Source: Escherichia phage SmurfNell
Direction: 5' to 3' (one strand)
Sequence record: OR896824.1
DNA: 64,000 nucleotides
Shown: positions 32,428-44,519 of the stretch, one piece after another
Numbering within the stretch: position 1 is the first letter of the stretch
Layout: each line of letters begins with the position of its first letter
Notes under the pieces: model-generated
What the model was told of the DNA's origin: nothing
The model's database searches: none
What the model saw: the letters and a program-made list of their open reading frames with translations, nothing else
Program-made: the position numbers and the translations under genes

Positions 32428-32598
32428 ATGAAATCAGTTGTAATTATTGGTGTTAATACCCGTGGTATCCGTACTACGAAAACAGTTAAAACTACTAACG
32501 TTGCTGAAATTACTACAAACCCTAAGAAGTTTGATTTCGCCAAAGTCTCGGCAGTTATGACAGAACAATCTTTTAACCAAGCACTGGGAATTAAATAA
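32428..32598 (+). CDS. hypothetical small protein (56 aa)
   Basis: Below ORF-track cutoff; GAGAGGAAG RBS directly downstream of promoter 32368-32396. Confidence 0.45.
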   Translation: MKSVVIIGVNTRGIRTTKTVKTTNVAEITTNPKKFDFAKVSAVMTEQSFNQALGIK

Positions 32599-33041
32599 TG
32601 GAAGAAAATATTCTAAATGTTTTGCGTAGGGCTTTGCAGGAATCTAAGATTGATGGCTCTGATAAAGAGGTAGCTAAAAGCTACCAGACCATAATCGAAG
32701 ATCTTCAGCGTGTTGATAAAGACTTCATTACTTCTGAACAGTTTGTGTCTTATCTCAAAGCTCAGCTGAAAAGCATTAATCAGACGAAAGCTAAACTTCA
32801 TGGTCAAGACCTTGATAATTATAGCTTGCAGTCTGCTCAGTATGAATATATACTGAACAAATGGCTACAACAGTATCTGCCGCCTCAGCTTTCTGATTCT
32901 GAGATTCGCAAATACTTTGCAGAATTAGTTAAGTTGAACCCTGGGATTACGAAGAGTATGCTGATGAAAGCGATTAAGGAAGAATTCCCTGGTCGTTATG
33001 ACGGTGGCATCGCTGCTCAGGTTGCTGGCGAATTTAACTAA
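32598..33041 (+). CDS. hypothetical protein (147 aa)
   Basis: ORF overlapping the preceding stop (ATAATGG). Confidence 0.55.
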   Translation: MEENILNVLRRALQESKIDGSDKEVAKSYQTIIEDLQRVDKDFITSEQFVSYLKAQLKSINQTKAKLHGQDLDNYSLQSAQYEYILNKWLQQYLPPQLSDSEIRKYFAELVKLNPGITKSMLMKAIKEEFPGRYDGGIAAQVAGEFN

Positions 33042-33049
33042 AAATTGAT

Positions 33050-33078
33050 TTGCTAAACGCTTCAAAATTCTGTATAAT
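33050..33078 (+). promoter_or_regulatory. T5-type sigma70 promoter driving the ORF-free 33.1-33.9 kb region and tRNA-Arg
   Basis: TTGCTA-17-TGTATAATAG plus ATTCATAAATTAGAGAACAG leader; no ORF for about 950 nt downstream. Confidence 0.65.
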
Positions 33079-33084
33079 AGATTC

Positions 33085-33937
33085 ATAAATTAGAGAACAG
33101 CGAGCCGATTACGCTGAGTGAGTTTAGTGATTCCTACTAGGATAGCTACTCCACTGAATAGAGTCGGTGAGTTGGAGACTAGTAAGTACTCTGAGAGAGG
33201 CTACGAGCTAACGCTTATTGCTATTGATAGGGAACTGAAAATCTGCGGAAAACTCGGGAGCTGTCCCGAAATCTCGTAAACTCTTCTCTAGTTTATGTTA
33301 GTGGGGTGTCGAACTGACTTATGTGATAACACTGCCGTCCTAGTATAAACGGTAATATCAAACCGTAACTGGTGGAAGATGCAGGTTCGAATCCTGCGGT
33401 CGGAAAGAATCAGATAACTCGGGCTTATACCGGATAAGCATTCGCTGCTGTAGTACATACTATGACGGTTCAGGAGGTACGCCTCCTGATCAGTATTAGG
33501 TTAGAATCGAAACAGCTAAACCACGAGGAAACCTGACGGCCTCAACCAAACTCGGAACTCGGGATCACTGCCTAGTGTGTACCCCGTTTAACCTGAGACT
33601 AGGCATCCAGCTTCGCATCGAAAATCGGAGGTGCGATTCTAACAGACCGCGTGAATATGAGAGTGGGAAACGCTGACATGAGAGATGTCACTAATGGTGC
33701 CCAATAGTACAGGTAATTCGCGATAATTCCTGTTGAGCGGCAGCAGTAGGCTGGGAGTCATGACCTAAGCCTAACCGAGTTCTTCACATACGGAGAACAT
33801 AACCACAAAGTCACCCTGACTTAAACTGGAAGATATTGTCTGACGGAAGGGCTGCAGAGCTTAATCTGAGGGGGCTGACCCTACCTACCGTCGGGTATCT
33901 TTAAGAGCTTTTATAAGAGTTCTTAAAAATACCTAAA
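33085..33937 (+). other. ORF-free transcribed region (putative ncRNA / tRNA precursor leader) containing a degenerate tRNA-like element
   Basis: About 850 nt downstream of promoter 33050-33078 with no ORF of 60 aa or more on either strand; ends at tRNA-Arg(TCT); contains several hairpins (e.g. CAGGAGG-TACG-CCTCCTG at 33487-33504). Confidence 0.35.
33346..33417 (+). other. degenerate tRNA-like element (canonical T-arm, 8-nt putative anticodon loop, imperfect acceptor stem)
   Basis: GCAGG-TTCGAAT-CCTGC T-arm and ACGGT/ACCGT hairpin with 8-nt loop; acceptor pairing has a U-U mismatch and no CCA. Confidence 0.25.
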
Positions 33938-34012
33938 CGGGGTGTAGTCTAAGGGATAGGCAGGAGTCTTCTAAATTCCTTTATGCAGGTTCGAATCCTG
34001 TCACCTCGGCCA
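33938..34012 (+). tRNA. tRNA-Arg (anticodon TCT)
   Basis: Hand-folded cloverleaf: acceptor CGGGGTG/CACCTCG, anticodon loop CTTCTAA, T-loop TTCGAAT, encoded CCA. Confidence 0.7.
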
Positions 34013-34038
34013 ATTTTATTAACTGCTAGGAAAATAAA

Positions 34039-34239
34039 GTGAAAACACGATATATAGTAAAAGTAGTAGGTGAACATTCACAAGTAAATACCACCGATGT
34101 TACAGCGCTAGCATTTGAAGTAGTCTCCGGTATAGTCATATTTCATAACGGAGATATCAAAGCTCCTGAATTTGCTGTGGATGCTAGCCTGTTTATTTCT
34201 GCAACTAAAGTAACTGTAGTAGCTAACCCTTCTAAATAA
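34039..34239 (+). CDS. hypothetical protein (66 aa, GTG start)
   Basis: ORF immediately after tRNA-Arg with AGGAAA RBS. Confidence 0.4.
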   Translation: MKTRYIVKVVGEHSQVNTTDVTALAFEVVSGIVIFHNGDIKAPEFAVDASLFISATKVTVVANPSK

Positions 34240-34250
34240 TAAGGAAATAT

Positions 34251-35195
34251 ATGTTTACTAAAAACACTAAAGAACTGACTTCCGATCAAAAAGTAATTCG
34301 TACTATTAAACGTTGGGGCGTTGGTGCTGTAGTTGGTCTTGGCGCTCTTATTCTGGCTCTCAATTCCTATACAGTTGTTCAGGACGGTACGGTTAAAACT
34401 CAGACTTTCCTGGGTAAAGTTAGTCCTAATCCTGTATTGCCGGGGTTCCATATTGTCAACCCATTCGCCTCTTTTGATACTTTTAGTACGAAAGATATTT
34501 CTATGAAACTGGATAAACTTCAGGTTCCTAGCCAGGATAAGTTTAAGTCCACTGTTGACATTACCGTTATGTTGCAGTTTGATGGTGCTAAAGCTCCTAT
34601 GAACCGTGTTAACGCAGGTACTCAGGATCAAGCTCTGAACAAGTACGTTGAAGAGAAGATGCTATCTACGATTCGTGAGTTTGGTAAGTCTGTACCAAAA
34701 GCACAAGATCTGTTCGACGCTAAGATTCAGGCTCAACTGCAAACTGCTATTCAGCAAGAAGTAGAAGAGTACGCGCGTCCTTATGGTTACACGGTTAAGC
34801 AAGTATTCCTTCAGGATATTACTCTGCCACCTGTAATCATGGAACAGGTACAAAACACAAAAGTTCGTGAAGAACAAGTTAACGCCGCTAAAGCTGAATT
34901 GGCTCGTGTTGAACAAGAAGCACAGCAGAAAGTTAAGCAAGCTGAAGCTGATCGTTCTGCTCGTGAAAACATGGCAGTAGCTAACGAACGTGACGCAGAT
35001 GCTAAACTGTACGCAGCTAAGAAAGAAGCTGAAGCTAACGCCGCGCTGCAACGTACCATTACTCCTGAAATGATTCGTTGGAAGCAGCTGGAAGTTGAAA
35101 TGCTTCGTGCTGAAAAATACCAAGGTGGTGTACCGCAGACTATTGTTGGTACTGGCTACGATGGTCAAATGATCATGGATATGCGTAACAAGTAA
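34251..35195 (+). CDS. SPFH/band-7 (prohibitin/HflKC-like) membrane protein
   Basis: N-terminal transmembrane helix (WGVGAVVGLGALILAL) followed by an SPFH-like domain and a long coiled coil; terminator at 35219-35260. Confidence 0.65.
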   Translation: MFTKNTKELTSDQKVIRTIKRWGVGAVVGLGALILALNSYTVVQDGTVKTQTFLGKVSPNPVLPGFHIVNPFASFDTFSTKDISMKLDKLQVPSQDKFKSTVDITVMLQFDGAKAPMNRVNAGTQDQALNKYVEEKMLSTIREFGKSVPKAQDLFDAKIQAQLQTAIQQEVEEYARPYGYTVKQVFLQDITLPPVIMEQVQNTKVREEQVNAAKAELARVEQEAQQKVKQAEADRSARENMAVANERDADAKLYAAKKEAEANAALQRTITPEMIRWKQLEVEMLRAEKYQGGVPQTIVGTGYDGQMIMDMRNK

Positions 35196-36523: not shown

Positions 36524-37201
36524 ATGACTAACTATCTTGTAAATGACTTTAAAAACTGGAAACCTTTGGAATATCTGTGGCTGTTTATAGCAGTCGCCTT
36601 TATTAGTTTAGCAAACTATAATGGTACAGCTCTAGATTGGGCTACTGCAATAACCAATGTGGTTTGTGTTATTCTGGTTGCAAAAGGACGTGTTTCCAAC
36701 TATATTTGGGGCTTAGTGGGTGTTCTTACATATGGTATTACAGCTTTAAACGCAGATCTTTATGGTAACGCTGCACTAAACCTGCTATACTACGTTCCTA
36801 TGCAGTTTTATGGAATGTACTTATGGCATAAAAATAAGCCAAGTAATCTGCCAGATGTTCCAACTAAGTTTCTGACTAAAGCCCAAGCTCTGCTGACTCT
36901 AGGGATTCTAGCAGTAGCCACGTTAGGGTATGGTAGTTTCTTAGCTACTACAGCTGATCCATTCCCAATGCTCGATGCATTTACTGCGGTTGGTAGTGTG
37001 ATCGCTATGTGGCTTATGGTTAAGCAGTATGCCGAGCAGTGGCTGATCTGGATTGCTATTAACATTGGTACTGTGTACATTTGGCTTGTAACTGCTCAAT
37101 CTACAGGTGCATCTTATGCAATCCTAGCAATGTGGCTAGTATTCTTAGGTAACTCTATTATGGGAGCCTATAAAGGATACTTTGTACGCGTTAACAAATA
37201 A
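36524..37201 (+). CDS. pnuC: PnuC-like nicotinamide riboside transporter
   Basis: About 225-aa polytopic membrane protein with Trp/Tyr-rich motifs (NYIWGLVGVLTYG, LYYVPMQFYGMYLW) typical of PnuC; overlaps nadR stop. Confidence 0.7.
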   Translation: MTNYLVNDFKNWKPLEYLWLFIAVAFISLANYNGTALDWATAITNVVCVILVAKGRVSNYIWGLVGVLTYGITALNADLYGNAALNLLYYVPMQFYGMYLWHKNKPSNLPDVPTKFLTKAQALLTLGILAVATLGYGSFLATTADPFPMLDAFTAVGSVIAMWLMVKQYAEQWLIWIAINIGTVYIWLVTAQSTGASYAILAMWLVFLGNSIMGAYKGYFVRVNK

Positions 37202-37207
37202 AGTAGT

Positions 37208-37236
37208 TATAGCCCTCGCTTAGAGGGCTATTATAC
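37208..37236 (+). terminator. putative terminator downstream of pnuC
   Basis: TAGCCCTC-GCTTA-GAGGGCTA hairpin followed by a weak T-run. Confidence 0.4.
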
Positions 37237-37248
37237 AGAAATTTTCAC

Positions 37249-37277
37249 TTGCTTAATATAGAAAATTTCTGTATAAT
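37249..37277 (+). promoter_or_regulatory. T5-type sigma70 promoter
   Basis: TTGCTT-17-TGTATAATAT plus ATTTATAAATTCGAGAGAGGAATCAAAC leader. Confidence 0.7.
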
Positions 37278-37307
37278 ATATTTATAAATTCGAGAGAGGA
37301 ATCAAAC

Positions 37308-37604
37308 ATGAAACGCATTGTACTTGCATTGACTCTAGTATCTACTTCTGTATTTGCTGCTCCGCAACAGGAACTTTGTCAAGTTCAGGTTTGTAATAAG
37401 CTAGAACGATTTACTCTAAACATTTGGTCCCATATTAAAGATAATATGGGTGAACAGTGTTTTGATATTGTTCTGCCAAAAGAACAGGCTATTCCTGGTG
37501 CTGTTCTTAGCTCAGAATCACGTTGGTGGCAGGGTTCTTCTATCAATCCAACTAAGAAGTCAGTGACACGTATCAAACAAGTATATCAGTGCAAGGTTCA
37601 GTAA
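37308..37604 (+). CDS. secreted hypothetical protein (98 aa)
   Basis: Signal peptide MKRIVLALTLVSTSVFAAP; downstream of promoter 37249-37277. Confidence 0.55.
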   Translation: MKRIVLALTLVSTSVFAAPQQELCQVQVCNKLERFTLNIWSHIKDNMGEQCFDIVLPKEQAIPGAVLSSESRWWQGSSINPTKKSVTRIKQVYQCKVQ

Positions 37605-37612
37605 AATTTCAC

Positions 37613-37641
37613 TTGCTTAATGTCGAAATTTTCTGTATAAT
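37613..37641 (+). promoter_or_regulatory. T5-type sigma70 promoter driving the first tRNA block
   Basis: TTGCTT-17-TGTATAATAT; tRNA-Ser starts 15 nt after the -10. Confidence 0.65.
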
Positions 37642-37655
37642 ATATTCATAAATTC

Positions 37656-37749
37656 GGAAGATTAACCCTAATGGTAAGGGAGCTGTTTGCTAAACAGCCA
37701 GTAGCTGTGGAGACACGGTGTGCCAGTTCGAATCTGGCATCTTCCTCCA
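37656..37749 (+). tRNA. tRNA-Ser (anticodon GCT), type II
   Basis: Acceptor GGAAGAT/ATCTTCC, anticodon stem-loop GCTGT-TTGCTAA-ACAGC, long variable arm, T-arm GCCAG-TTCGAAT-CTGGC, CCA. Confidence 0.7.
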
Positions 37750-37754
37750 GATTT

Positions 37755-37832
37755 GGTTCTCAAGCTCATTTGGTATGAGCCGTCGCCTCATAAGCGAAAG
37801 GTAGGTAGGTTCGAATCCTCCGGGAGCCACCA
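37755..37832 (+). tRNA. tRNA with CAT anticodon (Met or Ile2)
   Basis: Acceptor GGTTCTC/GGGAGCC with G-U pairs, D-stem GCTC/GAGC, anticodon loop CTCATAA, CCA; one mismatch in T-stem. Confidence 0.55.
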
Positions 37833-37849
37833 ATTAATTAGGAGACTAT

Positions 37850-38035
37850 ATGTCACGCTTTCGAGAAATTGCTCAAGAGCTAGAAGAATGTGCCTGCCCA
37901 AAATGCTTCGGAGCAGGTGAATGGAACGATGCTGAACCTGGTGATACATGGTATAATACATACGTTTGTACACATTGTAATAGTTCTGGTATTAATCCTG
38001 AATGCGGTATTTCTCTAGATATTGAGCGAGGCTAA
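37850..38035 (+). CDS. small Cys-rich zinc-ribbon protein (61 aa)
   Basis: CxxC...CxxC (CACPKCFGAG...CTHCNSSG); GGAG RBS. Confidence 0.5.
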   Translation: MSRFREIAQELEECACPKCFGAGEWNDAEPGDTWYNTYVCTHCNSSGINPECGISLDIERG

Positions 38036-38369
38036 GATGGATATCTACACTACACCAGCAGTAAACCTGATTGGCTCTTGCCTTGTGCATTTCCGCTTCT
38101 TCCAAACGGATGATAGCAAAGAGGAGTATACCTATCCTCTGATGGATTTTCAGATTGAGGACTTCTTCCGTGAAGTGCGTAATATCTCTGAGAACTTCTA
38201 TTATGGCATGGATAAGGAAGACTTTGACATTAAGTTCCCTATAATCTCTCGTTATTTCCTAGAGCAGTCCGATGCTCGGTTTGAGAAGATTGAACACATG
38301 GAAGTAGCCTGGGCTATCCAGTTCGAAATTACTGGCTTTGCTCGATACATTCAAGGTTACGAACTATGA
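38022..38369 (+). CDS. hypothetical protein (115 aa)
   Basis: ORF overlapping the upstream gene. Confidence 0.5.
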   Translation: MSEAKMDIYTTPAVNLIGSCLVHFRFFQTDDSKEEYTYPLMDFQIEDFFREVRNISENFYYGMDKEDFDIKFPIISRYFLEQSDARFEKIEHMEVAWAIQFEITGFARYIQGYEL

Positions 38370-38461
38370 AATTAAAAGATTATTATATTGGTTGGTTTGT
38401 AGGACTAATAGTAGGATTTTCACTGGGCTACAACTTGTATCAACTGATAAACTGATTACAT

Positions 38462-38538
38462 GGGGGTGTAATCGAATTGGCATAGGTACTGGACTTAAAA
38501 TTCAGGTTTTGTGGGTTCGAATCCCACCACCCCTACCA
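38462..38538 (+). tRNA. tRNA with TAA anticodon (Leu-type) but short variable loop
   Basis: Acceptor GGGGGTG/CACCCCT, anticodon stem-loop CTGGA-CTTAAAA-TTCAG, T-arm GTGGG-TTCGAAT-CCCAC, A73, CCA; D-arm pairing weak. Confidence 0.5.
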
Positions 38539-38554
38539 AATTAAGGAAATAAAA

Positions 38555-38677
38555 ATGAAAGCTATTAAGAAAGCACTACGTAAATTTATGTACTGTCGTT
38601 TTCATAGCATCAAGTCTTCGACTAATGGTACGACTTATGATCGCTATGATCCTAAGTTTGGCTTACATTCTAAATAA
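38555..38677 (+). CDS. hypothetical small protein (40 aa)
   Basis: Short ORF with AAGGAAAT RBS right after tRNA 38462-38538. Confidence 0.3.
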   Translation: MKAIKKALRKFMYCRFHSIKSSTNGTTYDRYDPKFGLHSK

Positions 38678-38690
38678 CTGGAGAAAACAA

Positions 38691-38897
38691 ATGGCTAATC
38701 CTGAAATTACAGCACAACGCTTTATGCTGAAAGGAATTATTGCTGAAGCAGGCATGACAGAAGAAGTTGCAGATTTTCAAAAGCAATTCCTCAATATTCT
38801 CACTCAAGCCAAAGAGCTAGGAGAGAAAGAACATGACGCAGCTGTTATGGCAATCACGTTGGTTGGGCTTGATCTGGCAGAAGAATCAGGAGTTTAA
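38691..38897 (+). CDS. hypothetical protein (68 aa)
   Basis: ATG 38691 with GGAG RBS; the ORF-track start 38625 gives an unlikely hydrophobic extension. Confidence 0.45.
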   Translation: MANPEITAQRFMLKGIIAEAGMTEEVADFQKQFLNILTQAKELGEKEHDAAVMAITLVGLDLAEESGV

Positions 38898-38926
38898 CTC
38901 CTCCAAGCAGAAATTTTAAAAATGTA

Positions 38927-38956
38927 CTTGCTTTTTACTTAAGATTTCTGCTATAA
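38927..38956 (+). promoter_or_regulatory. T5-type sigma70 promoter
   Basis: TTGCTT-18-TGCTATAATAG plus TTATATAAATTGATGAAGGAG leader. Confidence 0.6.
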
Positions 38957-38987
38957 TAGTTATATAAATTGATGAAGGAGTTAACGA

Positions 38988-39263
38988 ATGTCAAAACGTG
39001 TTACTGCAACTGGTGTTGAAAGTGCTGTTTGTAAATCCTGGGGTGGCTGGGAAGGTGAGATTGAATGGCTTTATTTCTACGACGTAGAACTTCTGCCGGA
39101 AGTCAAAGCTAAATGTGTGGAAGCCGGTATGGCTCCTGATGCAAAGGCTGATATCGAAATCACCATGCCTAAGCTAGAAGGTCGTGTAATTACGCTCAAT
39201 GATGATTATGAAGAAGTGTTCGAGCTTCCCTTCAAACTGAGTGTCACTCCTAGCTTCGAGTAA
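38988..39263 (+). CDS. hypothetical protein (91 aa)
   Basis: Downstream of promoter 38927-38956; GAAGGAG RBS. Confidence 0.55.
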   Translation: MSKRVTATGVESAVCKSWGGWEGEIEWLYFYDVELLPEVKAKCVEAGMAPDAKADIEITMPKLEGRVITLNDDYEEVFELPFKLSVTPSFE

Positions 39264-39299
39264 CTGATATAGCACTGAGCAAGTTCTTTAAAATTTGAC

Positions 39300-39328
39300 T
39301 TGCTCAGTCCTTCAAATCTTGATATAAT
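39300..39328 (+). promoter_or_regulatory. T5-type sigma70 promoter upstream of the tRNA-Tyr block
   Basis: TTGACTTGCTC ... GATATAATAG; -35 either TTGACT or TTGCTC at 17-nt spacing. Confidence 0.55.
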
Positions 39329-39391
39329 AGTTATCTAATTTGGAAACATATTTAAAAGTGTTTAAACTAGTATTTGAATATTTCTAAATAT

Positions 39392-39482
39392 GTTGGATTA
39401 GTATCGTAGAGGTAGCGAAGCAGACTGTAAATCTGCCGACTCGGAAGGGTCTCGGGTGGTTCGACTCCATCATCCAACACCA
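39392..39482 (+). tRNA. tRNA-Tyr (anticodon GTA), type II
   Basis: Anticodon arm GCAGACTGTAAATCTGC identical to E. coli tRNA-Tyr as recalled; perfect acceptor GTTGGAT/ATCCAAC; long variable arm; CCA. Confidence 0.8.
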
Positions 39483-39489
39483 AATTTAA

Positions 39490-39566
39490 GTCCTGTTAGA
39501 CAAACTGGTAAAGTCACTACCCTTTCAAGGTAGGATTTGCGGGTTCGATCCCCGCACAGGACGCCA
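39490..39566 (+). tRNA. tRNA-Glu (anticodon TTC)
   Basis: Acceptor GTCCTGT/ACAGGAC, anticodon stem-loop CTACC-CTTTCAA-GGTAG, T-arm GCGGG-TTCGATC-CCCGC, CCA. Confidence 0.75.
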
Positions 39567-39573
39567 ATTTCTG

Positions 39574-39651
39574 CATTCCTAGAGTGTTACTGGACAGCAT
39601 GTCGGTCTCCAAAACCGTACGGTCTAGGTTCGAGTCCTAGTAGGTTTGCCA
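39574..39651 (+). tRNA. candidate tRNA-Trp (anticodon CCA); acceptor stem imperfect
   Basis: T-arm CTAGG-TTCGAGT-CCTAG and anticodon hairpin CGGT-CTCCAAA-ACCG are clear, but 5'/3' acceptor pairing has two U-U mismatches. Confidence 0.3.
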
Positions 39652-39657
39652 ATATTT

Positions 39658-39732
39658 GCGACTTTAGCTGAGATGGATTAGCGTCTCCCTGAAAAGGAGA
39701 AGAGGTACGATCGTTACGTACAGGTTGCACCA
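39658..39732 (+). tRNA. tRNA-Phe (anticodon GAA)
   Basis: Acceptor GCGACTT/AGGTTGC, anticodon stem-loop TCTCC-CTGAAAA-GGAGA, CCA; unusual T-loop ATCGTTA. Confidence 0.65.
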
Positions 39733-39749
39733 ATTTGAAGGAGATGCTG

Positions 39750-40022
39750 ATGCATCCTGAAAACTTCTTTATTTACTGTGCGGATAAGTCATTAAAACGC
39801 AGAATTAACAAAGTCTACCATTATCGTGCTAGTCAACAGCCTTATGTTTATGCTTTTGATGGAGAAACCATTCCACTAAAGCAGTTGGCATGTGATTACA
39901 TGGTCTTGAAGAACTTTGATGAGACAAAGATCTCAAGCGTTCATAATCGACAGAATCCATTAACGTGGAAGTATAAGAAGAAAAAGAAAGGCATCAAATT
40001 TCTGAAAAATGTAGTTGCTTAA
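39750..40022 (+). CDS. hypothetical protein (about 90 aa)
   Basis: ORF after tRNA-Phe; AAGGAG RBS. Confidence 0.45.
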   Translation: MHPENFFIYCADKSLKRRINKVYHYRASQQPYVYAFDGETIPLKQLACDYMVLKNFDETKISSVHNRQNPLTWKYKKKKKGIKFLKNVVA

Positions 40023-40043
40023 ATCCTTAAAGTTCTGTATAAT
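40015..40043 (+). promoter_or_regulatory. T5-type sigma70 promoter
   Basis: TTGCTT-17-TGTATAATTA plus TTACATAAATTGAACTGGAG leader. Confidence 0.6.
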
Positions 40044-40072
40044 TATTACATAAATTGAACTGGAGAAGCAAC

Positions 40073-40297
40073 ATGACAGAACAAGAATTAAAAGAACGTA
40101 AGCTGGTAATGCTTCGCTTACTAAACATTTTCTCTGGTATGGATGGTGGTATTGACTTCGTTCAACTACGCACTTTTGTAGAAGAAGCTGAAGGCGAATC
40201 TATTACTAAAATCCTTAAACATATGGGTTTATTACTAGACGCTGCTAATGTAGCTACTGAATATAAATTAGAAGATCTACCGGAGCGTGTTTCATGA
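40073..40297 (+). CDS. hypothetical protein (74 aa)
   Basis: Downstream of promoter 40015-40043; CTGGAGAAG RBS. Confidence 0.5.
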   Translation: MTEQELKERKLVMLRLLNIFSGMDGGIDFVQLRTFVEEAEGESITKILKHMGLLLDAANVATEYKLEDLPERVS

Positions 40298-40485
40298 AAA
40301 TGTTAGTTAAATTTAAGTGTTGTGGTTCTGAACATATTTTCACTCGTTATAGAGAGTTTAAGATGTGTGAGTGTGGTAAGTCAGGCTATGATGCTGGAGA
40401 TGGCTATTATGCTAGATCTATAGGACATTCTAAAGATCTAGAGTTTACTAATCTCGAAAAGCAAGATAAATCGACCGTTGGCTGA
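40294..40485 (+). CDS. small Cys-rich protein (63 aa)
   Basis: CCGSEH...CECGKSG zinc-ribbon-like; overlaps previous stop; 3' end overlaps tRNA-Cys by 14 nt. Confidence 0.45.
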   Translation: MKMLVKFKCCGSEHIFTRYREFKMCECGKSGYDAGDGYYARSIGHSKDLEFTNLEKQDKSTVG

Positions 40486-40547
40486 ATGGCTTAGGCGGAG
40501 GCCTGCAAAACCTCCTTATGTGAGTTCGAATCTCATGCGGTCGTCCA
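40472..40547 (+). tRNA. tRNA-Cys (anticodon GCA)
   Basis: Acceptor CGACCGT/GCGGTCG, anticodon loop CTGCAAA, U73 discriminator as in bacterial tRNA-Cys, CCA. Confidence 0.65.
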
Positions 40548-40554
40548 AATTTTA

Positions 40555-40637
40555 GGGTCGTTAGCCAAGCGGTTTGGCGGTGGACTGTTAATCCATGTCG
40601 AAAGACAACGTAGGTTCGAATCCTACACGGCCCGCCA
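40555..40637 (+). tRNA. tRNA with GTT anticodon (Asn-type) carrying a 13-nt variable arm
   Basis: Acceptor GGGTCGT/ACGGCCC, D-arm GCCA-AGCGGTT-TGGC, anticodon stem-loop GTGGA-CTGTTAA-TCCAT, variable arm GTCGAAAGACAAC, T-arm GTAGG-TTCGAAT-CCTAC, CCA. Confidence 0.6.
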
Positions 40638-40739
40638 TATTCTGTGTAGAGTTAAGTAAACCGGTAGCCAACCAGCTATCATTACTGATATTGAATTCAG
40701 TCACAGATACCATTTTCATTAATAACTGAGGAAATAGAT

Positions 40740-40925
40740 ATGACAACTCGTGCAATTGCTCGACTAGAAGCTGATCGTGATAGTCTGATTAATAATATTA
40801 AGGTTTGGGATCAAGAAATTGAAAACCAAAAACTGACATTAATTCAAGATATGCAGCAACAGAATGCCCGTCGTGAAGCTCTAAAAGAGGTTGAGGAAGC
40901 TATCGAAAAACTCAAAACTGAGTAA
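40740..40925 (+). CDS. hypothetical coiled-coil protein (61 aa)
   Basis: ORF with GAGGAAA RBS between tRNA genes. Confidence 0.45.
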   Translation: MTTRAIARLEADRDSLINNIKVWDQEIENQKLTLIQDMQQQNARREALKEVEEAIEKLKTE

Positions 40926-40933
40926 ATAAATTA

Positions 40934-41010
40934 TGCGATCGGGGCTGGCTTGGTAATGGTACTCCCCTGTCACGGGAGAAAATGTGGGTTCGAATCCCAT
41001 CGGTCGCGCC
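40934..41010 (+). tRNA. tRNA-Asp (anticodon GTC)
   Basis: Acceptor GCGATCG/CGGTCGC, anticodon stem-loop CTCCC-CTGTCAC-GGGAG, T-loop TTCGAAT, G73, CCA. Confidence 0.7.
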
Positions 41011-41087
41011 AATTTTTGCAGGACGCTGGTATAGATAACCACCGCGTGGGAAGTGTCTATATTTAGAGCACTGCAAAACATAATAAT

Positions 41088-41163
41088 ACATCCATAGCTC
41101 AATGGTTAGAGCTACCGCCTCTTAAGCGGAGGGTTCTAGGTTCAAGTCCTAGTGGGTGTACCA
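41088..41163 (+). tRNA. tRNA-Lys (anticodon CTT)
   Basis: Acceptor ACATCCA/TGGGTGT, D-arm GCTC-AATGGTTA-GAGC, anticodon loop CTCTTAA, T-arm CTAGG-TTCAAGT-CCTAG, CCA. Confidence 0.65.
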
Positions 41164-41169
41164 AACATC

Positions 41170-41370
41170 AGAGTAGCGTGATGTACTGCAAAGACCCAAA
41201 GTCCGGGGTGGACTTCTTGATTCAAAGGAGCAGGCATTAATTATCATTCTAGCGTGGTGGAGAGGGGACACCAGCTTGCCGAGGGTAGAAGCTCGTTCGA
41301 TTCGAGTGAAAGAATGGTTCTCGTAAATCCGCACAAGTGATAGCAGGTTCAAGTCCTGCCTAGATTGACT
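41170..41370 (+). other. unresolved tRNA-like / structured RNA region between tRNA-Lys(CTT) and tRNA-Gly(GCC)
   Basis: Contains two T-arm-like hairpins (CTCG-TTCGATT-CGAG; GCAGG-TTCAAGT-CCTGC) and a TGGTG...CACCA hairpin, but no cloverleaf could be folded by hand. Confidence 0.3.
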
Positions 41371-41376
41371 TATTAT

Positions 41377-41450
41377 GCGTTCGTAGTTAAAAGGTATAAT
41401 TTTTGGTTGCCAACCAGAAGTTGAGGGTTCGATTCCCTCCGACCGCACCA
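41377..41450 (+). tRNA. tRNA-Gly (anticodon GCC)
   Basis: Acceptor GCGTTCG/CGACCGC (one U-C mismatch), anticodon stem-loop TTTGG-TTGCCAA-CCAGA, T-arm GAGGG-TTCGATT-CCCTC, CCA. Confidence 0.65.
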
Positions 41451-41698
41451 AATTTAGGTTTCTGCTTCCTAGAGAACTGACGCCTAGATAAACAAGGCGA
41501 TGAGTTTCCGGCCGGTTCTAGTCGCTGAAAATCCTCCCGACCAGGTAGGTGTAAGTAAACGAAAGTTTACTTATTAAGTAAGTCCGACACATCGGCGGGT
41601 GTGTTCTAGTACTTAAAGAAGGTCTCGCAAACTTTCTCGCTAGCATGAGTTGATAGCTCGGTGACTTACCTAATAAGTAAATTTATTAAAAAATGTAG

Positions 41699-41727
41699 TT
41701 GCTATTTAGCTTAATTCTCTGTATAAT
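41699..41727 (+). promoter_or_regulatory. T5-type sigma70 promoter upstream of the tRNA-Pro block
   Basis: TTGCTA-17-TGTATAATAT. Confidence 0.65.
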
Positions 41728-41759
41728 ATATTTTATAAAGTGAGTTAACAAAGAATATT

Positions 41760-41837
41760 CTCCGTGTAGCTCAGTTTGGCCAGAGCGTTTCGTTTGGGGC
41801 GATAGGGTCGGGGGTTCAAATCCTCCCACGGAGACCA
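41760..41837 (+). tRNA. tRNA-Pro (anticodon TGG)
   Basis: Acceptor CTCCGTG/CACGGAG, D-arm GCTC...GAGC, anticodon loop TTTGGGG, T-loop TTCAAAT, CCA; begins about 33 nt downstream of promoter -10. Confidence 0.6.
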
Positions 41838-41843
41838 AACAAT

Positions 41844-41921
41844 TGCGGGTTAGATCTCTGGTAGAGATCGCTAGTCTCATAAGCTAGAAAGAGGTAGGTT
41901 CGATTCCTGCACCCGCTTCCA
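41844..41921 (+). tRNA. tRNA with CAT anticodon (Met or Ile2), U1-U72 mismatch
   Basis: Palindromic D-stem GATC/GATC, anticodon stem-loop CTAGT-CTCATAA-GCTAG, T-loop TTCGATT, CCA; terminal acceptor pair unpaired. Confidence 0.55.
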
Positions 41922-41942
41922 ATTTAATAGAAGGATTTCTAA

Positions 41943-42107
41943 ATGAAATTGTTTCGTTTAAAAGTAAGTGATATACGTTCTAGTAAAGATCGTAAGAAGT
42001 ATCCACTAGCTCACTACGGTAAAGATGAAAACGAAGTGATGGCGGAATTTGGTATTAATCATCCTTACTTGAAAATATACTCTATCAAAGAAGTATACAT
42101 GTATTAA
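41943..42107 (+). CDS. hypothetical small protein (54 aa)
   Basis: Short ORF between two tRNAs, below track cutoff. Confidence 0.3.
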   Translation: MKLFRLKVSDIRSSKDRKKYPLAHYGKDENEVMAEFGINHPYLKIYSIKEVYMY

Positions 42108-42109
42108 AT

Positions 42110-42188
42110 AGATCGCTAGCTCAATTGGTTTAGCAGCACCCGGCTTTTAACCGGAAGGTTCTGGGTTCGAGTCCCAGGCGGTCTACCA
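42110..42188 (+). tRNA. tRNA-Lys (anticodon TTT)
   Basis: Acceptor AGATCGC/GCGGTCT, anticodon hairpin CCGG-CTTTTAA-CCGG, T-arm CTGGG-TTCGAGT-CCCAG, CCA. Confidence 0.65.
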
Positions 42189-42205
42189 ATTTAAAGGAAT
42201 TTGTT

Positions 42206-42523
42206 ATGAATATTAACAAAGTTCTAGAAACAATATCAGAAATGTCTGGTAGAGCTGGAAAACGCTTTACTGAACTATGTATTAAAAATCAAAAAATACC
42301 AGAACATCAATGTCATTATTGTCGAGACTGTGAACAATACCATGAAATGTGTGTGGTTGAAGATTGGATCTGGGATCAGATAAGAAAAGAACAATCCAAA
42401 GATATTGTTCTATGTTTTACTTGTATGGAACGACGTTTAGGACGTAAAATTACTCTTAAAGATCTTAAACATGTTCCCTGTAACGCTCCTTACTTCATTG
42501 GTTTTAGAATGGAGAGATTTTGA
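42206..42523 (+). CDS. Cys-rich putative zinc-binding protein (105 aa)
   Basis: CHYCRDCEQYHEMC...CFTCMERR; AAGGAA RBS. Confidence 0.5.
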   Translation: MNINKVLETISEMSGRAGKRFTELCIKNQKIPEHQCHYCRDCEQYHEMCVVEDWIWDQIRKEQSKDIVLCFTCMERRLGRKITLKDLKHVPCNAPYFIGFRMERF

Positions 42524-42666
42524 TGATAATCTGGTTTTACTTAATGAAACAAAAAGTCAAGCAGTACAACGTATTTTCTGCTGATTTTACTATTGGAATG
42601 TTCTTAGCAGGATTATGTGAGTTTCTGTTTGAAGCATTCTTAATCGGAAGTCTTTTGCTCGGTTAG
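42523..42666 (+). CDS. small hydrophobic protein (47 aa)
   Basis: ATGA overlap with upstream gene; predicted single TM; 3' end overlaps tRNA-Val. Confidence 0.3.
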   Translation: MIIWFYLMKQKVKQYNVFSADFTIGMFLAGLCEFLFEAFLIGSLLLG

Positions 42667-42730
42667 TTTAATGGGAGAACCCCGTCTTTACACGGCGGTT
42701 GCGATAGTTCGATTCTATCACCGAGTACCA
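42657..42730 (+). tRNA. tRNA-Val (anticodon TAC)
   Basis: Acceptor GCTCGGT/ACCGAGT, D-stem GTTT/GAAC, anticodon stem-loop CCGTC-TTTACAC-GGCGG, T-arm GATAG-TTCGATT-CTATC, CCA. Confidence 0.7.
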
Positions 42731-42749
42731 ATTAACTCAAAATAAGGAA

Positions 42750-43109
42750 TTGCAAATGCAATTATCAAGCAAGGTTCAAGGCTACTTCGGTCATGTAACA
42801 ATGGAGTTCGCTATCTCTAAAGGTTGGGACTTCGAACAAGATTTAGCTGAGTTCTACAAAGATATTGATCTGAACGTACCGTACATGGGACTCTCTACTG
42901 GTCAGGAAATCACAGAAGCCGATGTATTCAAGGCAAGTCAAGGTGAGATAACACCTAGTTTTGCCGAGTTCTGGTTAGGAATTACTCTGAAAGATGATGC
43001 ACCGGATGGTGGTGTGGTTATGCAGAGTATGCACTCTGGAAGCTCTGATTACCTTTTCGTTAGCGACGTTAAGGAAATACAAGAAATCTGCAAAAATGTA
43101 CTTGCTTGA
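42750..43109 (+). CDS. hypothetical protein (119 aa)
   Basis: ORF with AAGGAA RBS after tRNA-Val. Confidence 0.55.
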   Translation: MQMQLSSKVQGYFGHVTMEFAISKGWDFEQDLAEFYKDIDLNVPYMGLSTGQEITEADVFKASQGEITPSFAEFWLGITLKDDAPDGGVVMQSMHSGSSDYLFVSDVKEIQEICKNVLA

Positions 43110-43131
43110 TACTTAATTTCTTGTTATAATA
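43103..43131 (+). promoter_or_regulatory. T5-type sigma70 promoter upstream of an ORF-free region and the tRNA-Ala pair
   Basis: TTGCTT-17-TGTTATAATAT plus TTATATAAATTGATGAGGAG leader. Confidence 0.65.
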
Positions 43132-43392
43132 TTTATATAAATTGATGAGGAGAAATCCTCATCAAAGTTCACTAAGGTATTAGCTCGACCTAGGACTGGC
43201 TGCCAAAAAGCACGGTTGCAATTAGACCCCTAATGGCGGGGGATACTTTGCAAGAAGTTCTAGATTAGTCCACTAGATTCAGCGGCAACTGAATAGTGTA
43301 TCGGGTTTGTGAAGAGCGGTTATCCTCTACTGGCTAATGTCTGAGGGTAATACGCACGCCGAGCTAATAGCCTTAGTAAACTTAAAGATTTT

Positions 43393-43466
43393 GGGGATAT
43401 AGTTTAATGGTAGAACATCTGCTTTGCACGCAGAAGACGAGGGTTCAACTCCCCCTTTCTCCACCA
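43393..43466 (+). tRNA. tRNA-Ala (anticodon TGC)
   Basis: Anticodon arm TCTGC-TTTGCAC-GCAGA as in E. coli tRNA-Ala; G3-U70 identity pair; CCA. Confidence 0.7.
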
Positions 43467-43472
43467 AAATTT

Positions 43473-43548: not shown

Positions 43549-43561
43549 AATTAGAGGAAGC

Positions 43562-44094: not shown

Positions 44095-44111
44095 ATTTTG
44101 TAGTAAACAAC

Positions 44112-44203: not shown

Positions 44204-44209
44204 AACAAT

Positions 44210-44450: not shown

Positions 44451-44519
44451 CAAAGAGTAACGGTGCACCTTTCTAGAGAATTTTCTGGGCGAGAATCCAG
44501 AAGTAATCAACTAGTTGTT

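What the first reader, a model, noticed from the sequence alone, without database searches (positions are those of the whole stretch)
33050..34012. 850-nt ORF-free RNA transcribed from a strong promoter, ending in tRNA-Arg and containing a degenerate tRNA-like element
A canonical T5-type promoter at 33050-33078 is followed by about 850 nt without any ORF of 60 aa or more on either strand before tRNA-Arg(TCT). The region is structured (multiple stable hairpins) and includes a tRNA-like element at 33346-33417 with a perfect T-arm but an 8-nt anticodon-type loop. It could be a large noncoding RNA, a processed precursor yielding small RNAs, or decayed tRNA genes.
Basis: seen in the sequence. Interest (0 to 1): 0.6.

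Follow-up and report, generated by a model that had tools for sequence, protein, structure and literature searches.

The report
T5-type phage structured RNA "RNAX"
The ORF-free stretch is this phage's copy of RNAX, a large non-coding RNA long annotated in phage T5 with unknown function; comparison across T5-like phages shows it folds into a conserved multi-domain structure carrying a tRNA look-alike arm.

Summary
The window is Escherichia phage SuperGirl, a T5-like Epseptimavirus. The promoter, the roughly 850-nt stretch without a long ORF and tRNA-Arg(UCU) are all present. The tRNA-like element lies at 33334-33405, not 33346-33417, and its anticodon-type arm is a 3-bp stem with a 6-nt loop.

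The homologous stretch is annotated in the T5 and BF23 records as "RNAX, stable RNA with unknown functions". It runs from promoter P16-17 to tRNA-Arg. The entity is therefore known, but it has no Rfam family, and I found no paper on its structure or function.

Across 21 non-redundant homologues from eight named Demerecviridae genera and two unclassified phages, it is a modular structured RNA:
- a 5'-terminal helix P0 with a variable insertion;
- a four-way junction, Domain 1 (93% of cells paired; 17 of 27 pairs show compensatory changes);
- a swappable arm that is a maintained tRNA mimic;
- further covarying helices;
- a nearly invariant 3' hairpin.

No reading frame is conserved. The T5 st0 deletion mutant lacks RNAX, so it is accessory.

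Best reading: a trans-acting, end-protected, stable structured RNA released by tRNA-Arg processing. Its molecular target is unknown.

The parts
33050..33078 (+). Early promoter (-35 TTGCTA, 17-nt spacer, -10 TATAAT), homologue of T5 promoter P16-17
   Evidence: 10 of 12 matches. Annotated as P16-17 in T5 and BF23 and as 'P16-17-like' in S114. The promoter block is 80-91% identical in T5, BF23 and DU_PP_V.
33085..33937 (+). RNAX transcript, 853 nt. The 5' end is inferred; the 3' end is inferred to be the RNase P cut at the 5' end of tRNA-Arg.
   Evidence: Homology to misc_RNA rnaX of T5 (719 nt) and BF23 (784 nt), which run from the promoter to tRNA-Arg. The start at the A seven nt after the -10 box follows my recollection of the T5 PN25 promoter (TATAATAGATTCATAAATTT), not a measurement.
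33085..33097 (+). P0, 5' strand (AUAAAUUAGAGAA), pairing with 33284-33296
   Evidence: A 13-bp helix appears in the MFE fold. In T5 and AKFV33 the same helix closes a loop of only a few nt. Compensatory changes occur in AKFV33, AAS21 and My1, and G.U-compatible changes occur in BF23 and SuperGirl.
33098..33283 (+). Variable insertion in the loop of P0, absent in T5 and of different size and sequence in other lineages
   Evidence: The distance from promoter to core varies from 75 to about 600 nt. The 53-aa ORF annotated here is frameshifted or interrupted in close relatives.
33284..33296 (+). P0, 3' strand (UUCUCUAGUUUAU)
33301..33524 (+). Domain 1, a four-way junction. P1 is 33301-04:33521-24. 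The joiner GGUGUCGAA is 33305-13. P2 is 33314-27:33409-22, with conserved CxC and GxG mismatches. P4 is the hairpin 33423-39. P5 is 33447-50:33513-16, with an expansion at 33451-33512.
   Evidence: On 21 non-redundant sequences, 93.1% of cells are paired, against 28-38% when the partner is slid. 17 of 27 pairs have changes on both sides (101 cells). The covariation score is 0.524, against 0.03-0.08 slid and 0.20 shuffled; 0 of 500 shuffles reach it.
33334..33405 (+). tRNA-like arm capping P2. Acceptor, D and T arms are kept. The anticodon arm is reduced to 3 bp plus a 6-nt loop. There is no CCA, and the 3' side runs directly into P2.
   Evidence: Rfam tRNA 29.3 bits. The cloverleaf is 86% paired, against 27-54% slid, and 8 pairs have compensatory changes. 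ARAGORN calls the homologue tRNA-Ser(act) in T5, TrudiGerster and S124, and tRNA-Leu(tag) in DU_PP_V. A plain hairpin takes its place in Proteus, Providencia and HildyBeyeler-type phages.
33525..33658 (+). Variable linker containing hairpins, with lineage-specific modules
   Evidence: Alignments. One hairpin, UCGCAUC..GUGCGA (UCACA..UGUGA in Klebsiella phages), is shared by several lineages.
33663..33806 (+). Domain 2, closed by P6 (GUGG 33663-66 : CCAC 33803-06). Hairpins lie at 33674-90, 33709-33, 33749-71 and 33779-98. The loop AGUCAUGA (33756-63) contains the palindrome UCAUGA.
   Evidence: RNAalifold on 8 sequences predicts 72 pairs across Domains 2 and 3 together, 18 of them with compensatory changes. 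GGAGUCAUGACC is present in 16 of 17 sequences that have Domain 2; My1 has one change.
33809..33893 (+). Domain 3: hairpin AGUCAcccUGACU (33809-21), conserved UAAACUGGAA, helix 33842-50:33884-92 enclosing two small hairpins, and the motif CUUAAU
   Evidence: Helix 33842-50:33884-92 was read by eye from those alignments (GACGGAAGG:CCUACCGUC, against GACGUUACUG:CGGUAUCGUC in BF23 and GACAGUAGUG:CGCUACUGGC in Klebsiella phages). It was not counted formally.
33894..33933 (+). Terminal hairpin GGUAUCUUUAAGAGCUUUUAUAAGAGUUCUUAAAAAUACC, nearly invariant, 5 nt upstream of tRNA-Arg
   Evidence: 94.7-100% identity over 38 nt, out to Pectobacterium phage DU_PP_V. It stays with RNAX when ORFs separate RNAX from tRNA-Arg. 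Its G.U wobbles are conserved. It occurs only once in the window.
33938..34012 (+). tRNA-Arg(UCU), co-transcribed with RNAX. Its 5' maturation would create the RNAX 3' end.
   Evidence: ARAGORN, Rfam 49.3 bits, and the same arrangement in T5 and BF23.

Best explanation
Positions 33085-33937 encode the SuperGirl orthologue of phage T5 RNAX, a non-coding, highly structured RNA of about 0.85 kb. It is transcribed by host RNA polymerase from a strong early promoter, together with tRNA-Arg(UCU) and the downstream genes. RNase P cleavage at the 5' end of tRNA-Arg would release it (inferred). Both ends are buried in helices: P0 starts at the first nucleotide, and a 17-18-bp hairpin closes the 3' end. 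This would explain why the T5 annotators describe it as a 'stable RNA' (inferred). The body is modular. Domain 1 is an invariant four-way junction. Its long arm P2 carries a swappable cap, which in most lineages is a maintained tRNA mimic with a tRNA elbow but no decoding anticodon loop and no CCA. Domain 2 is a second multi-helix domain with an invariant palindromic loop. Domain 3 is a three-way 3' domain. Shown here: orthology, lack of coding potential, conservation across Demerecviridae, covariation-supported helices, RNA-level and + strand constraint, and absence from the T5 st0 deletion mutant. Inferred: that it acts in trans as an accessory RNA that binds or titrates a protein partner. 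The candidates I favour are host enzymes that recognise the tRNA elbow and acceptor stem, or a sequence-specific binder of the invariant 3' hairpin. The actual target and benefit are unknown.
For: Identity: the window is 100% identical to phage SuperGirl. T5 and BF23 annotate the syntenic, homologous stretch as misc_RNA rnaX, 'stable RNA with unknown functions', between promoter P16-17 and tRNA-Arg. Homologous DNA is found in 526 phage records. The arrangement of YqeY-like gene, ORF-free region of 0.8-1.2 kb and tRNA-Arg(UCU) holds in Pectobacterium and Proteus phages; in Providencia phages annotated ORFs lie between Domain 1 and tRNA-Arg. Structure: Domain 1 is 93.1% paired, 17 of 27 pairs are compensatory, and 0 of 500 shuffles reach the score; slid controls are 28-38% paired. 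The tRNA-like arm is 86% paired with 8 compensatory pairs. Domains 2 and 3 have 72 predicted pairs, 18 compensatory. MFE z = -3.5. Strand and RNA level: many G.U pairs would be A.C mismatches on the other strand, for example UG:9, UG:8 and GU:4 in P2 and three wobbles in the 3' hairpin. Non-coding: substitutions are evenly spread over codon positions (20/18/21, 25/25/21, 14/15/16). Most indels are 1-2 nt. Open frames differ in place and frame between relatives. The annotated ORFs are broken in close relatives and have no Pfam hit. Accessory status: the T5 st0 record joins the remnant of T5.068 to the remnant of T5.081, which removes RNAX and its promoter. Specificity: a degenerate Domain 1 motif gave only T5-like phage contigs plus a few chance hits in IMG/VR, JGI/ENA metagenomes and 185,579 bacterial and archaeal species genomes. 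There is no match in 5,426 complete E. coli genomes.
Against: There are no expression or end-mapping data for this phage. 'Stable RNA' rests on GenBank notes whose experimental basis I could not read. The trans-acting role and the choice of partner are inference only. Proteus and Providencia phages keep only Domain 1 and part of Domain 3, and in Providencia phages and Proteus phage PM135 a protein gene follows Domain 1, so the full-length RNA is not universally required. Frequent module swapping shows that large parts are replaceable. Dispensability in T5 st0 shows no role in basic lytic growth. The pairing scheme of the two GUGG and two CCAC motifs is ambiguous. The alignments behind searches were spliced and chosen by me after inspecting the sequences, which favours the structure somewhat.
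Confidence: 0.8

Rival explanations
1. A cis-acting leader. On this view the structured RNA is only a long 5' leader or processing scaffold that controls maturation or expression of tRNA-Arg and the downstream genes (the 66-aa ORF and the SPFH protein). In Providencia and Proteus phages it would control the DUF7448 ORF that follows Domain 1.
For: No terminator-like site was found between RNAX and tRNA-Arg or the downstream genes. The first annotated terminator lies after the SPFH gene. In PSTCR5, PR1 and PM135 an ORF with its own Shine-Dalgarno sequence starts just after the 3' strand of P1.
Against: RNAX stays intact, with its own 3' hairpin, when 0.5 kb of ORFs separate it from tRNA-Arg (S124, S126, Klebsiella phages, AAS21). 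The downstream gene differs between lineages. 600-850 nt with three covarying domains is far beyond known tRNA leaders. RNase P processing of tRNA-Arg would cut it away from the mRNA. T5 and BF23 annotate it as a separate stable RNA.
Confidence: 0.1
2. A decayed tRNA array or neutral spacer. On this view the stretch is the remains of tRNA genes and intergenic filler in the tRNA region, with chance hairpins.
For: It lies at the edge of a 30-tRNA region. It contains one tRNA-like element whose T-arm is identical over 18 nt to that of tRNA-Arg. Annotation pipelines call that element tRNA-Ser, tRNA-Sec, tRNA-OTHER or pseudo-tRNA.
Against: Only one Rfam tRNA hit appears in 2.1 kb even at E<=10. Non-tRNA helices covary strongly. 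The tRNA-like element shows compensatory changes, so it is under selection. Core motifs are kept between subfamilies whose flanking YqeY-like proteins are only 30-37% identical.
Confidence: 0.03
3. One or more small proteins are encoded here, such as the CDS annotated in several GenBank records.
For: SuperGirl, Seabear, TrudiGerster, Kpn02 and others annotate 33-70-aa 'hypothetical proteins' here.
Against: The annotated ORFs differ in place, strand and frame from record to record. The 53-aa frame is shifted or stopped in close relatives. There is no codon-position bias in substitutions, and 1-nt indels are common. There is no Pfam hit.
Confidence: 0.03
4. A DNA-level element, such as a replication, recombination or protein-binding site, rather than an RNA.
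For: The terminal hairpin is conserved in sequence rather than by covariation. Module borders are hot spots for insertions of homing-endonuclease and other ORFs.
Against: Conserved G.U wobble pairs are strand-specific. A promoter is directed into the element. The covariation pattern is that of single-stranded RNA helices with long-range pairs more than 200 nt apart (P0, P1).
Confidence: 0.03

Closest known systems
RNAX of bacteriophages T5 and BF23 (misc_RNA rnaX, GenBank NC_005859 / AY692264 / NC_042564)
   Same: It has the same position: after the T5.081 homologue and promoter P16-17, and directly before tRNA-Arg(UCU) and the T5.080 (SPFH) homologue. It shares sequence blocks (about 82% identity over about 55% of the length). 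It has the same Domain 1, tRNA-like arm, Domain 2, Domain 3 and 3' hairpin.
   Different: The SuperGirl copy is 853 nt, against 719 nt in T5 and 784 nt in BF23. It has a 186-nt insertion in the P0 loop, a larger P5 expansion and a different linker. T5 has an internal duplication in Domain 3. The SuperGirl record does not annotate the RNA and instead carries two doubtful CDS.
GOLLD and ROOL, large 'ornate' RNAs of phages and prophages (Rfam families; cryo-EM in PMC12286853)
   Same: They are large (0.5-0.8 kb), multi-domain, covarying non-coding RNAs of unknown function. As I recall from the literature, they are phage-encoded and typically sit next to tRNA genes.
   Different: No Rfam model matches, even at E<=10. 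The hosts differ (Enterobacterales phages of Demerecviridae). RNAX carries an internal tRNA mimic. Self-assembly of RNAX is untested; only an invariant palindromic loop hints at it.
Bacterial Y RNAs (YrlA), a helix bound by Rsr/Ro60 and capped by a tRNA-like module
   Same: The architecture of P2 plus arm is similar. P2 is a long helix with conserved sequence and conserved non-canonical pairs, capped by a module that mimics the tRNA acceptor, T and D arms but lacks a decoding anticodon loop. The comparison with YrlA is from memory.
   Different: RNAX is 5-8 times larger, and the module is only one arm of a four-way junction. There is no Rfam match. No Rsr gene was looked for, and E. coli K-12 is not known to have one (my knowledge). 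Some lineages replace the arm with a plain hairpin.
tmRNA and tRNA-like processing signals (for example the mascRNA element of MALAT1, or RNase P substrates such as phage P1/P7 C4 RNA)
   Same: A tRNA-like fold is embedded in a longer RNA. U at -1 and G at +1 of the acceptor stem (33333/33334) fit the RNase P preference (my knowledge). The downstream tRNA-Arg would give RNase P-dependent 3' end formation.
   Different: ARAGORN finds no tmRNA, and there is no tag ORF. Cleavage at the internal element is untested. It would cut inside Domain 1, and the element is dispensable in several lineages.

Membership tests
RNAX (stable RNA annotated in T5 and BF23) | Lies between the T5.081 homologue with promoter P16-17 and tRNA-Arg(UCU) followed by the T5.080 homologue | tested here: met
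   The upstream gene is YqeY-like and the downstream gene is an SPFH/Band_7 protein.
RNAX (stable RNA annotated in T5 and BF23) | Sequence homology to the annotated T5 and BF23 RNAX | tested here: met
   BF23: 56% of the query covered at 81.5% identity, under the feature 'rnaX'. Block-wise homology to T5. Shared covarying structure.
RNAX (stable RNA annotated in T5 and BF23) | Accumulates as a stable transcript in infected cells | not testable with these tools
   Only the GenBank note 'stable RNA with unknown functions' is available. No paper describing it turned up in the held library.
tRNA (Rfam RF00005), for the element at 33334-33405 | Cloverleaf scoring at or above the curated threshold | tested here: met
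   29.3 bits against a gathering score of 29, which is borderline. The acceptor and T stems covary.
tRNA (Rfam RF00005), for the element at 33334-33405 | 5-bp anticodon stem with a 7-nt loop presenting an anticodon | tested here: not met
   The arm is a 3-bp stem with a 6-nt loop, ACC-GUAACU-GGU. It differs in length and sequence between lineages and is expanded by 14 nt in Klebsiella phages. ARAGORN makes no call in the window, and its anticodon assignments in relatives are inconsistent: act in some, tag in another.
tRNA (Rfam RF00005), for the element at 33334-33405 | Free acceptor end (discriminator plus CCA, or a processable 3' trailer) | tested here: not met
   The 3' acceptor strand runs through AAAG directly into the 3' strand of P2, and no CCA is present.
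GOLLD, ROOL, OLE and other curated large bacterial or phage ncRNAs (Rfam 15) | Match to the family covariance model | tested here: not met
   No hit apart from tRNA in 32500-34600 at E<=10, nor in the whole window at gathering thresholds.
tmRNA | tRNA-like domain formed by the 5' and 3' ends, plus a tag-peptide ORF | tested here: not met
   ARAGORN reports tRNAs only. There is no Rfam tmRNA hit.
Group I intron (for example in tRNA genes) | Match to the intron model and interruption of a host gene | tested here: not met
   There is no Rfam hit. The element is flanked by a promoter and an intact tRNA-Arg, not by exon halves.
Y RNA / YrlA | Ro/Rsr-binding helix, an Rsr partner and a family-model match | tested here: inconclusive
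   No Rfam family of any kind matched. I did not verify which Y-RNA models the library holds, and I did not search for an Rsr gene. Only the architectural resemblance was seen.

The most novel reading that the evidence does not exclude
RNAX is the founding member of an undescribed class of large, modular, 'ornate' phage RNAs restricted to T5-like phages. Its invariant four-way junction, tRNA-mimic arm, invariant palindromic loop (UCAUGA) and invariant 3' hairpin would make it a trans-acting particle, possibly self-associating through a kissing loop. It would engage host machinery that recognises the tRNA shape, such as RNase P, tRNA-modifying or repair enzymes, or tRNA-directed defence nucleases. 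It would give an accessory advantage in natural hosts while being dispensable in laboratory E. coli.
Probability: 0.3. Interest if true: 0.8.

Novelty: new member of a known kind. Interest (0 to 1): 0.5.

Why it matters
T5 is a classical model phage, and its tRNA region has recently been tied to escape from tRNA-targeting defences (PMC11464382). RNAX has sat in the T5 record for about twenty years as a 'stable RNA with unknown functions'. It is not in Rfam, and I found no description of its fold or role.

This analysis shows three things:
- RNAX is conserved across Demerecviridae.
- It has a covariation-supported multi-domain architecture with a maintained tRNA mimic.
- Natural minimal versions (about 200 nt in Proteus phage Stubb) and a natural deletion (T5 st0) exist.

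Together these turn an annotation note into a testable object. Defined domains can be mutated, viable deletion backgrounds are available, and the hypotheses are clear: end protection, RNase P processing, protein binding and dimerisation.

There is also a practical point. Many GenBank records of T5-like phages carry spurious small CDS or pseudo-tRNA calls over this RNA.

Tried and rejected
- **Rfam.** Scans at E<=10 on the region and at gathering thresholds on the window gave only tRNA hits.
- **IMG/VR scans.** The 3' hairpin pattern and a loose Domain 1 pattern returned only the same isolate genomes plus chance hits in unrelated UViGs. They added no diversity.
- **Metagenome scan.** A tighter Domain 1 pattern gave 12 true T5-like contigs, mostly T5/BF23-type, and one chance hit. 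This helped for distribution but not for covariation.
- **Bacterial and archaeal genome scan.** It gave 3 chance hits and no homologue.
- **blastn against 5,426 complete E. coli genomes.** No match, so there is no host homologue or long antisense target.
- **A naive all-against-all search for stacked complementary columns on a global MAFFT alignment.** It was dominated by false positives and was abandoned.
- **Single-sequence MFE folds of the minimal Stubb RNA and global RNAalifold on the whole RNA.** They gave inconsistent long-range pairs and were used only as leads.
- **Literature searches for RNAX, T5 stable RNAs, and Demerecviridae structured RNA.** None found a paper on this RNA. One 2026 preprint could not be opened.
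- **Considered and rejected:** group I intron, tmRNA, small proteins, decayed tRNA array, DNA-level element. See the rival explanations and membership tests.
- **Not done:** I did not build a covariance model. The variable arms exceed what a single model of 400 columns or fewer would align cleanly.
Full report
**What the window is**

The stretch 33040-34020 is 100% identical to Escherichia phage SuperGirl (MZ501105; Demerecviridae, Markadamsvirinae, Epseptimavirus), a T5-like phage. It lies at the upstream edge of a region with 30 tRNA genes.

**Check of the observation**

- The promoter TTGCTA-17-TATAAT is at 33050-33078. The consensus scan alone is not above chance. The site is, however, homologous to the promoter annotated as P16-17 in T5 and BF23 and as 'P16-17-like' in Salmonella phage S114.
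- From memory, the -10 box and initial transcribed sequence (TATAATAGATTCATAAATTAGAGA) closely resemble the classical strong T5 promoter PN25. That places the start at A33085.
- tRNA-Arg(tct) is at 33938-34012.
- Between promoter and tRNA, the longest ORFs are 53 aa (+) and 56 aa (-).
- The tRNA-like element is real but lies at 33334-33405 (Rfam tRNA, 29.3 bits against a threshold of 29). This is 12 nt upstream of the coordinates given. Its anticodon-type arm is a 3-bp stem with a 6-nt loop.

**It is already annotated in the model phages**

blastn finds homologous DNA in 526 phage records. In the BF23 tRNA-region record and in the T5 reference genome, the homologous stretch is annotated as misc_RNA rnaX, 'RNAX, stable RNA with unknown functions'. 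It is 784 nt in BF23 and 719 nt in T5. In both it runs from promoter P16-17 to the first base of tRNA-Arg. It is one of eight 'stable RNAs' annotated in the T5 tRNA region.

The SuperGirl record does not annotate it. Instead it carries two 'hypothetical protein' CDS inside it.

I found no paper in the held library that describes RNAX. No Rfam family matches apart from tRNA.

**Distribution**

The arrangement of YqeY-like gene, ORF-free stretch and tRNA-Arg(UCU), together with recognisable core motifs, is present in these groups:

- Tequintavirus, Epseptimavirus, and unclassified Markadamsvirinae (Eos, Pantoea phage AAS21);
- Sugarlandvirus (Klebsiella phages);
- Mccorquodalevirinae (Pectobacterium phages DU_PP_V and My1);
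- Novosibvirus (Proteus phages);
- Priunavirus (Providencia phages).

Their flanking YqeY-like proteins are only 30-37% identical to SuperGirl's.

A degenerate Domain 1 motif retrieved only T5-like phage contigs, plus a few chance hits, from three collections: IMG/VR, the metagenome collection, and one genome for each of 185,579 bacterial and archaeal species. blastn against 5,426 complete E. coli genomes found nothing. The element therefore appears confined to this phage family, within the reach of these searches.

**Anatomy** (window coordinates checked)

After clustering at 97% identity I had 21 distinct homologues.

1. **P0.** The first 13 nt (33085-33097) pair with 33284-33296.
   - In T5 and AKFV33 the same helix closes a small loop. 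In SuperGirl a 186-nt insertion sits in that loop. The distance from promoter to core ranges from 75 to about 600 nt.
   - AKFV33, AAS21 and My1 show compensatory changes in P0.
2. **Domain 1** (33301-33524) is a four-way junction.
   - P1 is 33301-04:33521-24. The invariant joiner GGUGUCGAA follows.
   - P2 (33314-27:33409-22) is a 14-position helix with conserved CxC and GxG mismatches.
   - P4 is the hairpin 33423-39. P5 is 33447-50:33513-16, with a variable expansion.
3. **The arm.** P2 is capped, through the internal loop AACACU/AAAG, by the tRNA-like element 33334-33405.
4. **A variable linker** spans 33525-33658.
5. **Domain 2** (33663-33806) is closed by a second GUGG:CCAC helix and holds four hairpins. 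One of them presents the motif GGAGUCAUGACC, found in 16 of the 17 sequences that have Domain 2. Its loop contains the palindrome UCAUGA.
6. **Domain 3** (33809-33893) comes next, followed by a terminal hairpin (33894-33933) 5 nt before tRNA-Arg.

**Evidence that this is a structured RNA**

- **Domain 1.** I spliced out the two variable insertions and counted pairs on 21 sequences.
  - 93.1% of 567 cells form standard pairs, against 28-38% when the 3' partner is slid by 1-3 columns.
  - 17 of 27 pairs, covering 101 cells, changed on both sides.
  - The covariation score is 0.524, against 0.03-0.08 slid and 0.20 shuffled. 0 of 500 shuffles reach it.
  - P1 shows three different Watson-Crick pairs at each of two positions (GC/UA/AU and UA/GC/CG).
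- **The tRNA-like cloverleaf**, on 13 sequences, is 86% paired against 27-54% slid. Eight pairs are compensatory, mostly in the acceptor and T stems.
- **Domains 2 and 3.** RNAalifold on 8 sequences predicts 72 pairs, 18 of them with compensatory changes.
- **Thermodynamics.** The single-sequence MFE has z = -3.5.
- **Strand.** Many conserved G.U pairs would be A.C mismatches on the opposite strand, so the constraint acts on + strand RNA.
- **Caveat.** I chose and spliced the alignments after inspecting the sequences, and the sequences are related. The shuffle numbers are therefore not probabilities. The slid controls and the number of independent pair types carry the argument.

**Not coding**

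Substitutions between SuperGirl and relatives that are 90-98% identical fall evenly on the three codon positions (20/18/21, 25/25/21, 14/15/16). Most indels are 1-2 nt. Open frames differ in position, strand and frame between homologues. The 53-aa frame annotated in SuperGirl is frameshifted or stopped in close relatives. Neither annotated ORF has a Pfam match.

**The tRNA-like arm**

Its acceptor stem, D arm with GG, and T arm with UUCGAAU are maintained. For example, acceptor pair 5:68 is A-U in T5, U-A in BF23 and UxU in most others, and the T stem alternates between GCAGG, GUAGG and GUGGG with matching partners.

The 'anticodon' arm is short and differs between lineages. It is expanded by 14 nt in Klebsiella phages, where the extension itself covaries in a metagenomic variant. 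There is no CCA, and the 3' strand continues into P2.

ARAGORN and annotation pipelines call the homologues tRNA-Ser(ACU), tRNA-Leu(UAG), tRNA-Sec, tRNA-Pro or 'OTHER'. I regard these as artefacts.

In Proteus, Providencia and HildyBeyeler-type phages, an ordinary hairpin occupies the same position. The element is thus a maintained tRNA mimic that serves as a replaceable peripheral arm. It is neither a decoding tRNA nor a decaying pseudogene.

**Modularity**

- Proteus phage Stubb has a minimal version of about 200 nt from Domain 1 to tRNA-Arg, consisting of Domain 1 plus part of Domain 3.
- T5 has an internal duplication in Domain 3.
- mar003J3 combines a T5-like 5' half with a different 3' half.
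- ORFs are inserted at module borders. There is an HNH endonuclease gene upstream in mar003J3, ORFs between the 3' hairpin and tRNA-Arg in S124, S126, the Klebsiella phages and AAS21, and a DUF7448 gene with its own Shine-Dalgarno sequence right after Domain 1 in Providencia phages.
- The 3' hairpin stays with RNAX in these cases. It is 94.7-100% identical over 38 nt out to Pectobacterium phages, while other helices drift and covary. This suggests sequence-specific recognition.

**Dispensability**

In the record of the T5 st0 deletion mutant, the remnant of T5.068 is joined to the remnant of T5.081. This removes the interval that in wild type holds nine tRNA genes, RNA3, RNAX and promoter P16-17. 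RNAX is therefore not needed for lytic growth on laboratory E. coli, like other parts of the tRNA region (PMC11464382).

**How it most likely works**

- **Shown:** it is an orthologue of T5 RNAX; it is non-coding; it is conserved; it is structured at the RNA level on the + strand; it is preceded by a conserved strong-promoter sequence; it is followed by tRNA-Arg; and it is accessory.
- **Inferred:** host RNA polymerase makes it early and abundantly. RNase P cleavage at tRNA-Arg releases it. P0 at the very 5' end and the long 3' hairpin protect it from 5'-end-dependent and 3' exonucleolytic decay, which would make it 'stable'.
- **Also inferred:** it acts in trans as an RNA or RNP whose conserved junctions, tRNA-mimic arm, palindromic loop and invariant hairpin are recognition surfaces.
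- **Not known:** I cannot name the target. I favour proteins that read the tRNA elbow and acceptor stem, and a specific binder or processing enzyme at the 3' hairpin.
- **Rivals:** cis-acting leader, decayed tRNAs, small proteins and a DNA-level element are each less consistent with the data, as set out in the rival explanations.

**Comparison with known systems**

It is a member of the RNAX family annotated in T5 and BF23. It resembles GOLLD and ROOL in size, ornateness, phage origin and proximity to tRNA genes. The P2-plus-arm module resembles bacterial Y RNAs (YrlA). It matches no curated model, however, and it fails the defining tests for tRNA, tmRNA and group I introns.

**Verdict**

The object is not new as an entity. 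Its family-wide conservation, its covariation-supported architecture and the nature of the tRNA-like arm appear to be undescribed. Interest is moderate (0.5).

Noticed in passing
window 33118-33279 (+) and 33288-33458 (-): The SuperGirl GenBank record annotates two 'hypothetical protein' CDS (bas29_0079, bas29_0080) inside RNAX. The second is antisense to the tRNA-like arm and P2. Neither frame is kept in relatives and neither has a Pfam hit, so they are probably spurious.
   Followed up: yes
window 32598-33041 (+): The upstream gene is a weak YqeY-like protein (PF09424, 23.8 bits, below the cut-off of 27). Different records name it 'recombination-related exonuclease', 'tRNA amidotransferase' or 'YqeY-like'. 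It sits next to RNAX in most lineages but not in Klebsiella phages.
   Followed up: partly
window 33379-33396 and 33983-34000: An 18-nt exact repeat: the T-arm of the tRNA-like arm is identical to the T-arm of tRNA-Arg(UCU) 600 nt downstream. It may mark the origin of the mimic or a substrate for recombination.
   Followed up: no
window 33756-33763 (loop of hairpin 33749-33771): The loop AGUCAUGA within the motif GGAGUCAUGACC, present in 16 of 17 homologues that have Domain 2, contains the 6-nt palindrome UCAUGA. This could allow kissing-loop dimerisation. My1 has one change that breaks the palindrome.
   Followed up: partly
L040 (T5) about 3540-3650, homologous to window about 33809-33831: T5 RNAX carries an internal duplication of AGUCACCUUGACUUAAACUGGAA, with about 85 nt between the copies. 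It is absent from BF23 and SuperGirl.
   Followed up: no
L045 1916-2323 (Providencia phage PSTCR5); also L046 and L041: In Providencia phages a DUF7448 protein gene (PF24240, 85.9 bits) with its own Shine-Dalgarno sequence starts just after the 3' strand of P1. Proteus phage PM135 has an untyped ORF with a Shine-Dalgarno sequence at the same place. Only Domain 1 and a short 3' part of RNAX are recognisable in these phages.
   Followed up: partly
L051 215-697 (mar003J3); L006 1305-1814 (S124); L007 and L008 (Klebsiella phages): An HNH endonuclease gene and other small ORFs are inserted at the borders of RNAX: between the YqeY-like gene and RNAX, or between the RNAX 3' hairpin and tRNA-Arg. RNAX modules are shuffled between lineages, which suggests recombination driven by homing endonucleases.
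   Followed up: no
window 44112-44203 and 44210-44299: ARAGORN calls two tRNA-Ser genes (gga, tga) that the Rfam tRNA model does not report at its gathering threshold. Otherwise the two tools agree on the tRNA set.
   Followed up: no
L054 (T5 22000-42100); window about 37000-46300: The T5 record annotates seven further 'stable RNAs' in the tRNA region (RNAI, RNAIII, RNAIV, RNA1, RNA2, RNA2H, RNA3; some described as tRNA-like). Whether this window holds homologues in its tRNA-free gaps was not examined.
   Followed up: no
L074 (T5 st0, AY692264) 7668-7847: The st0 deletion joint, a 10-bp 'recombination site', fuses remnants of T5.068 and T5.081. It removes RNAX, its promoter and nine tRNA genes.
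   Followed up: yes
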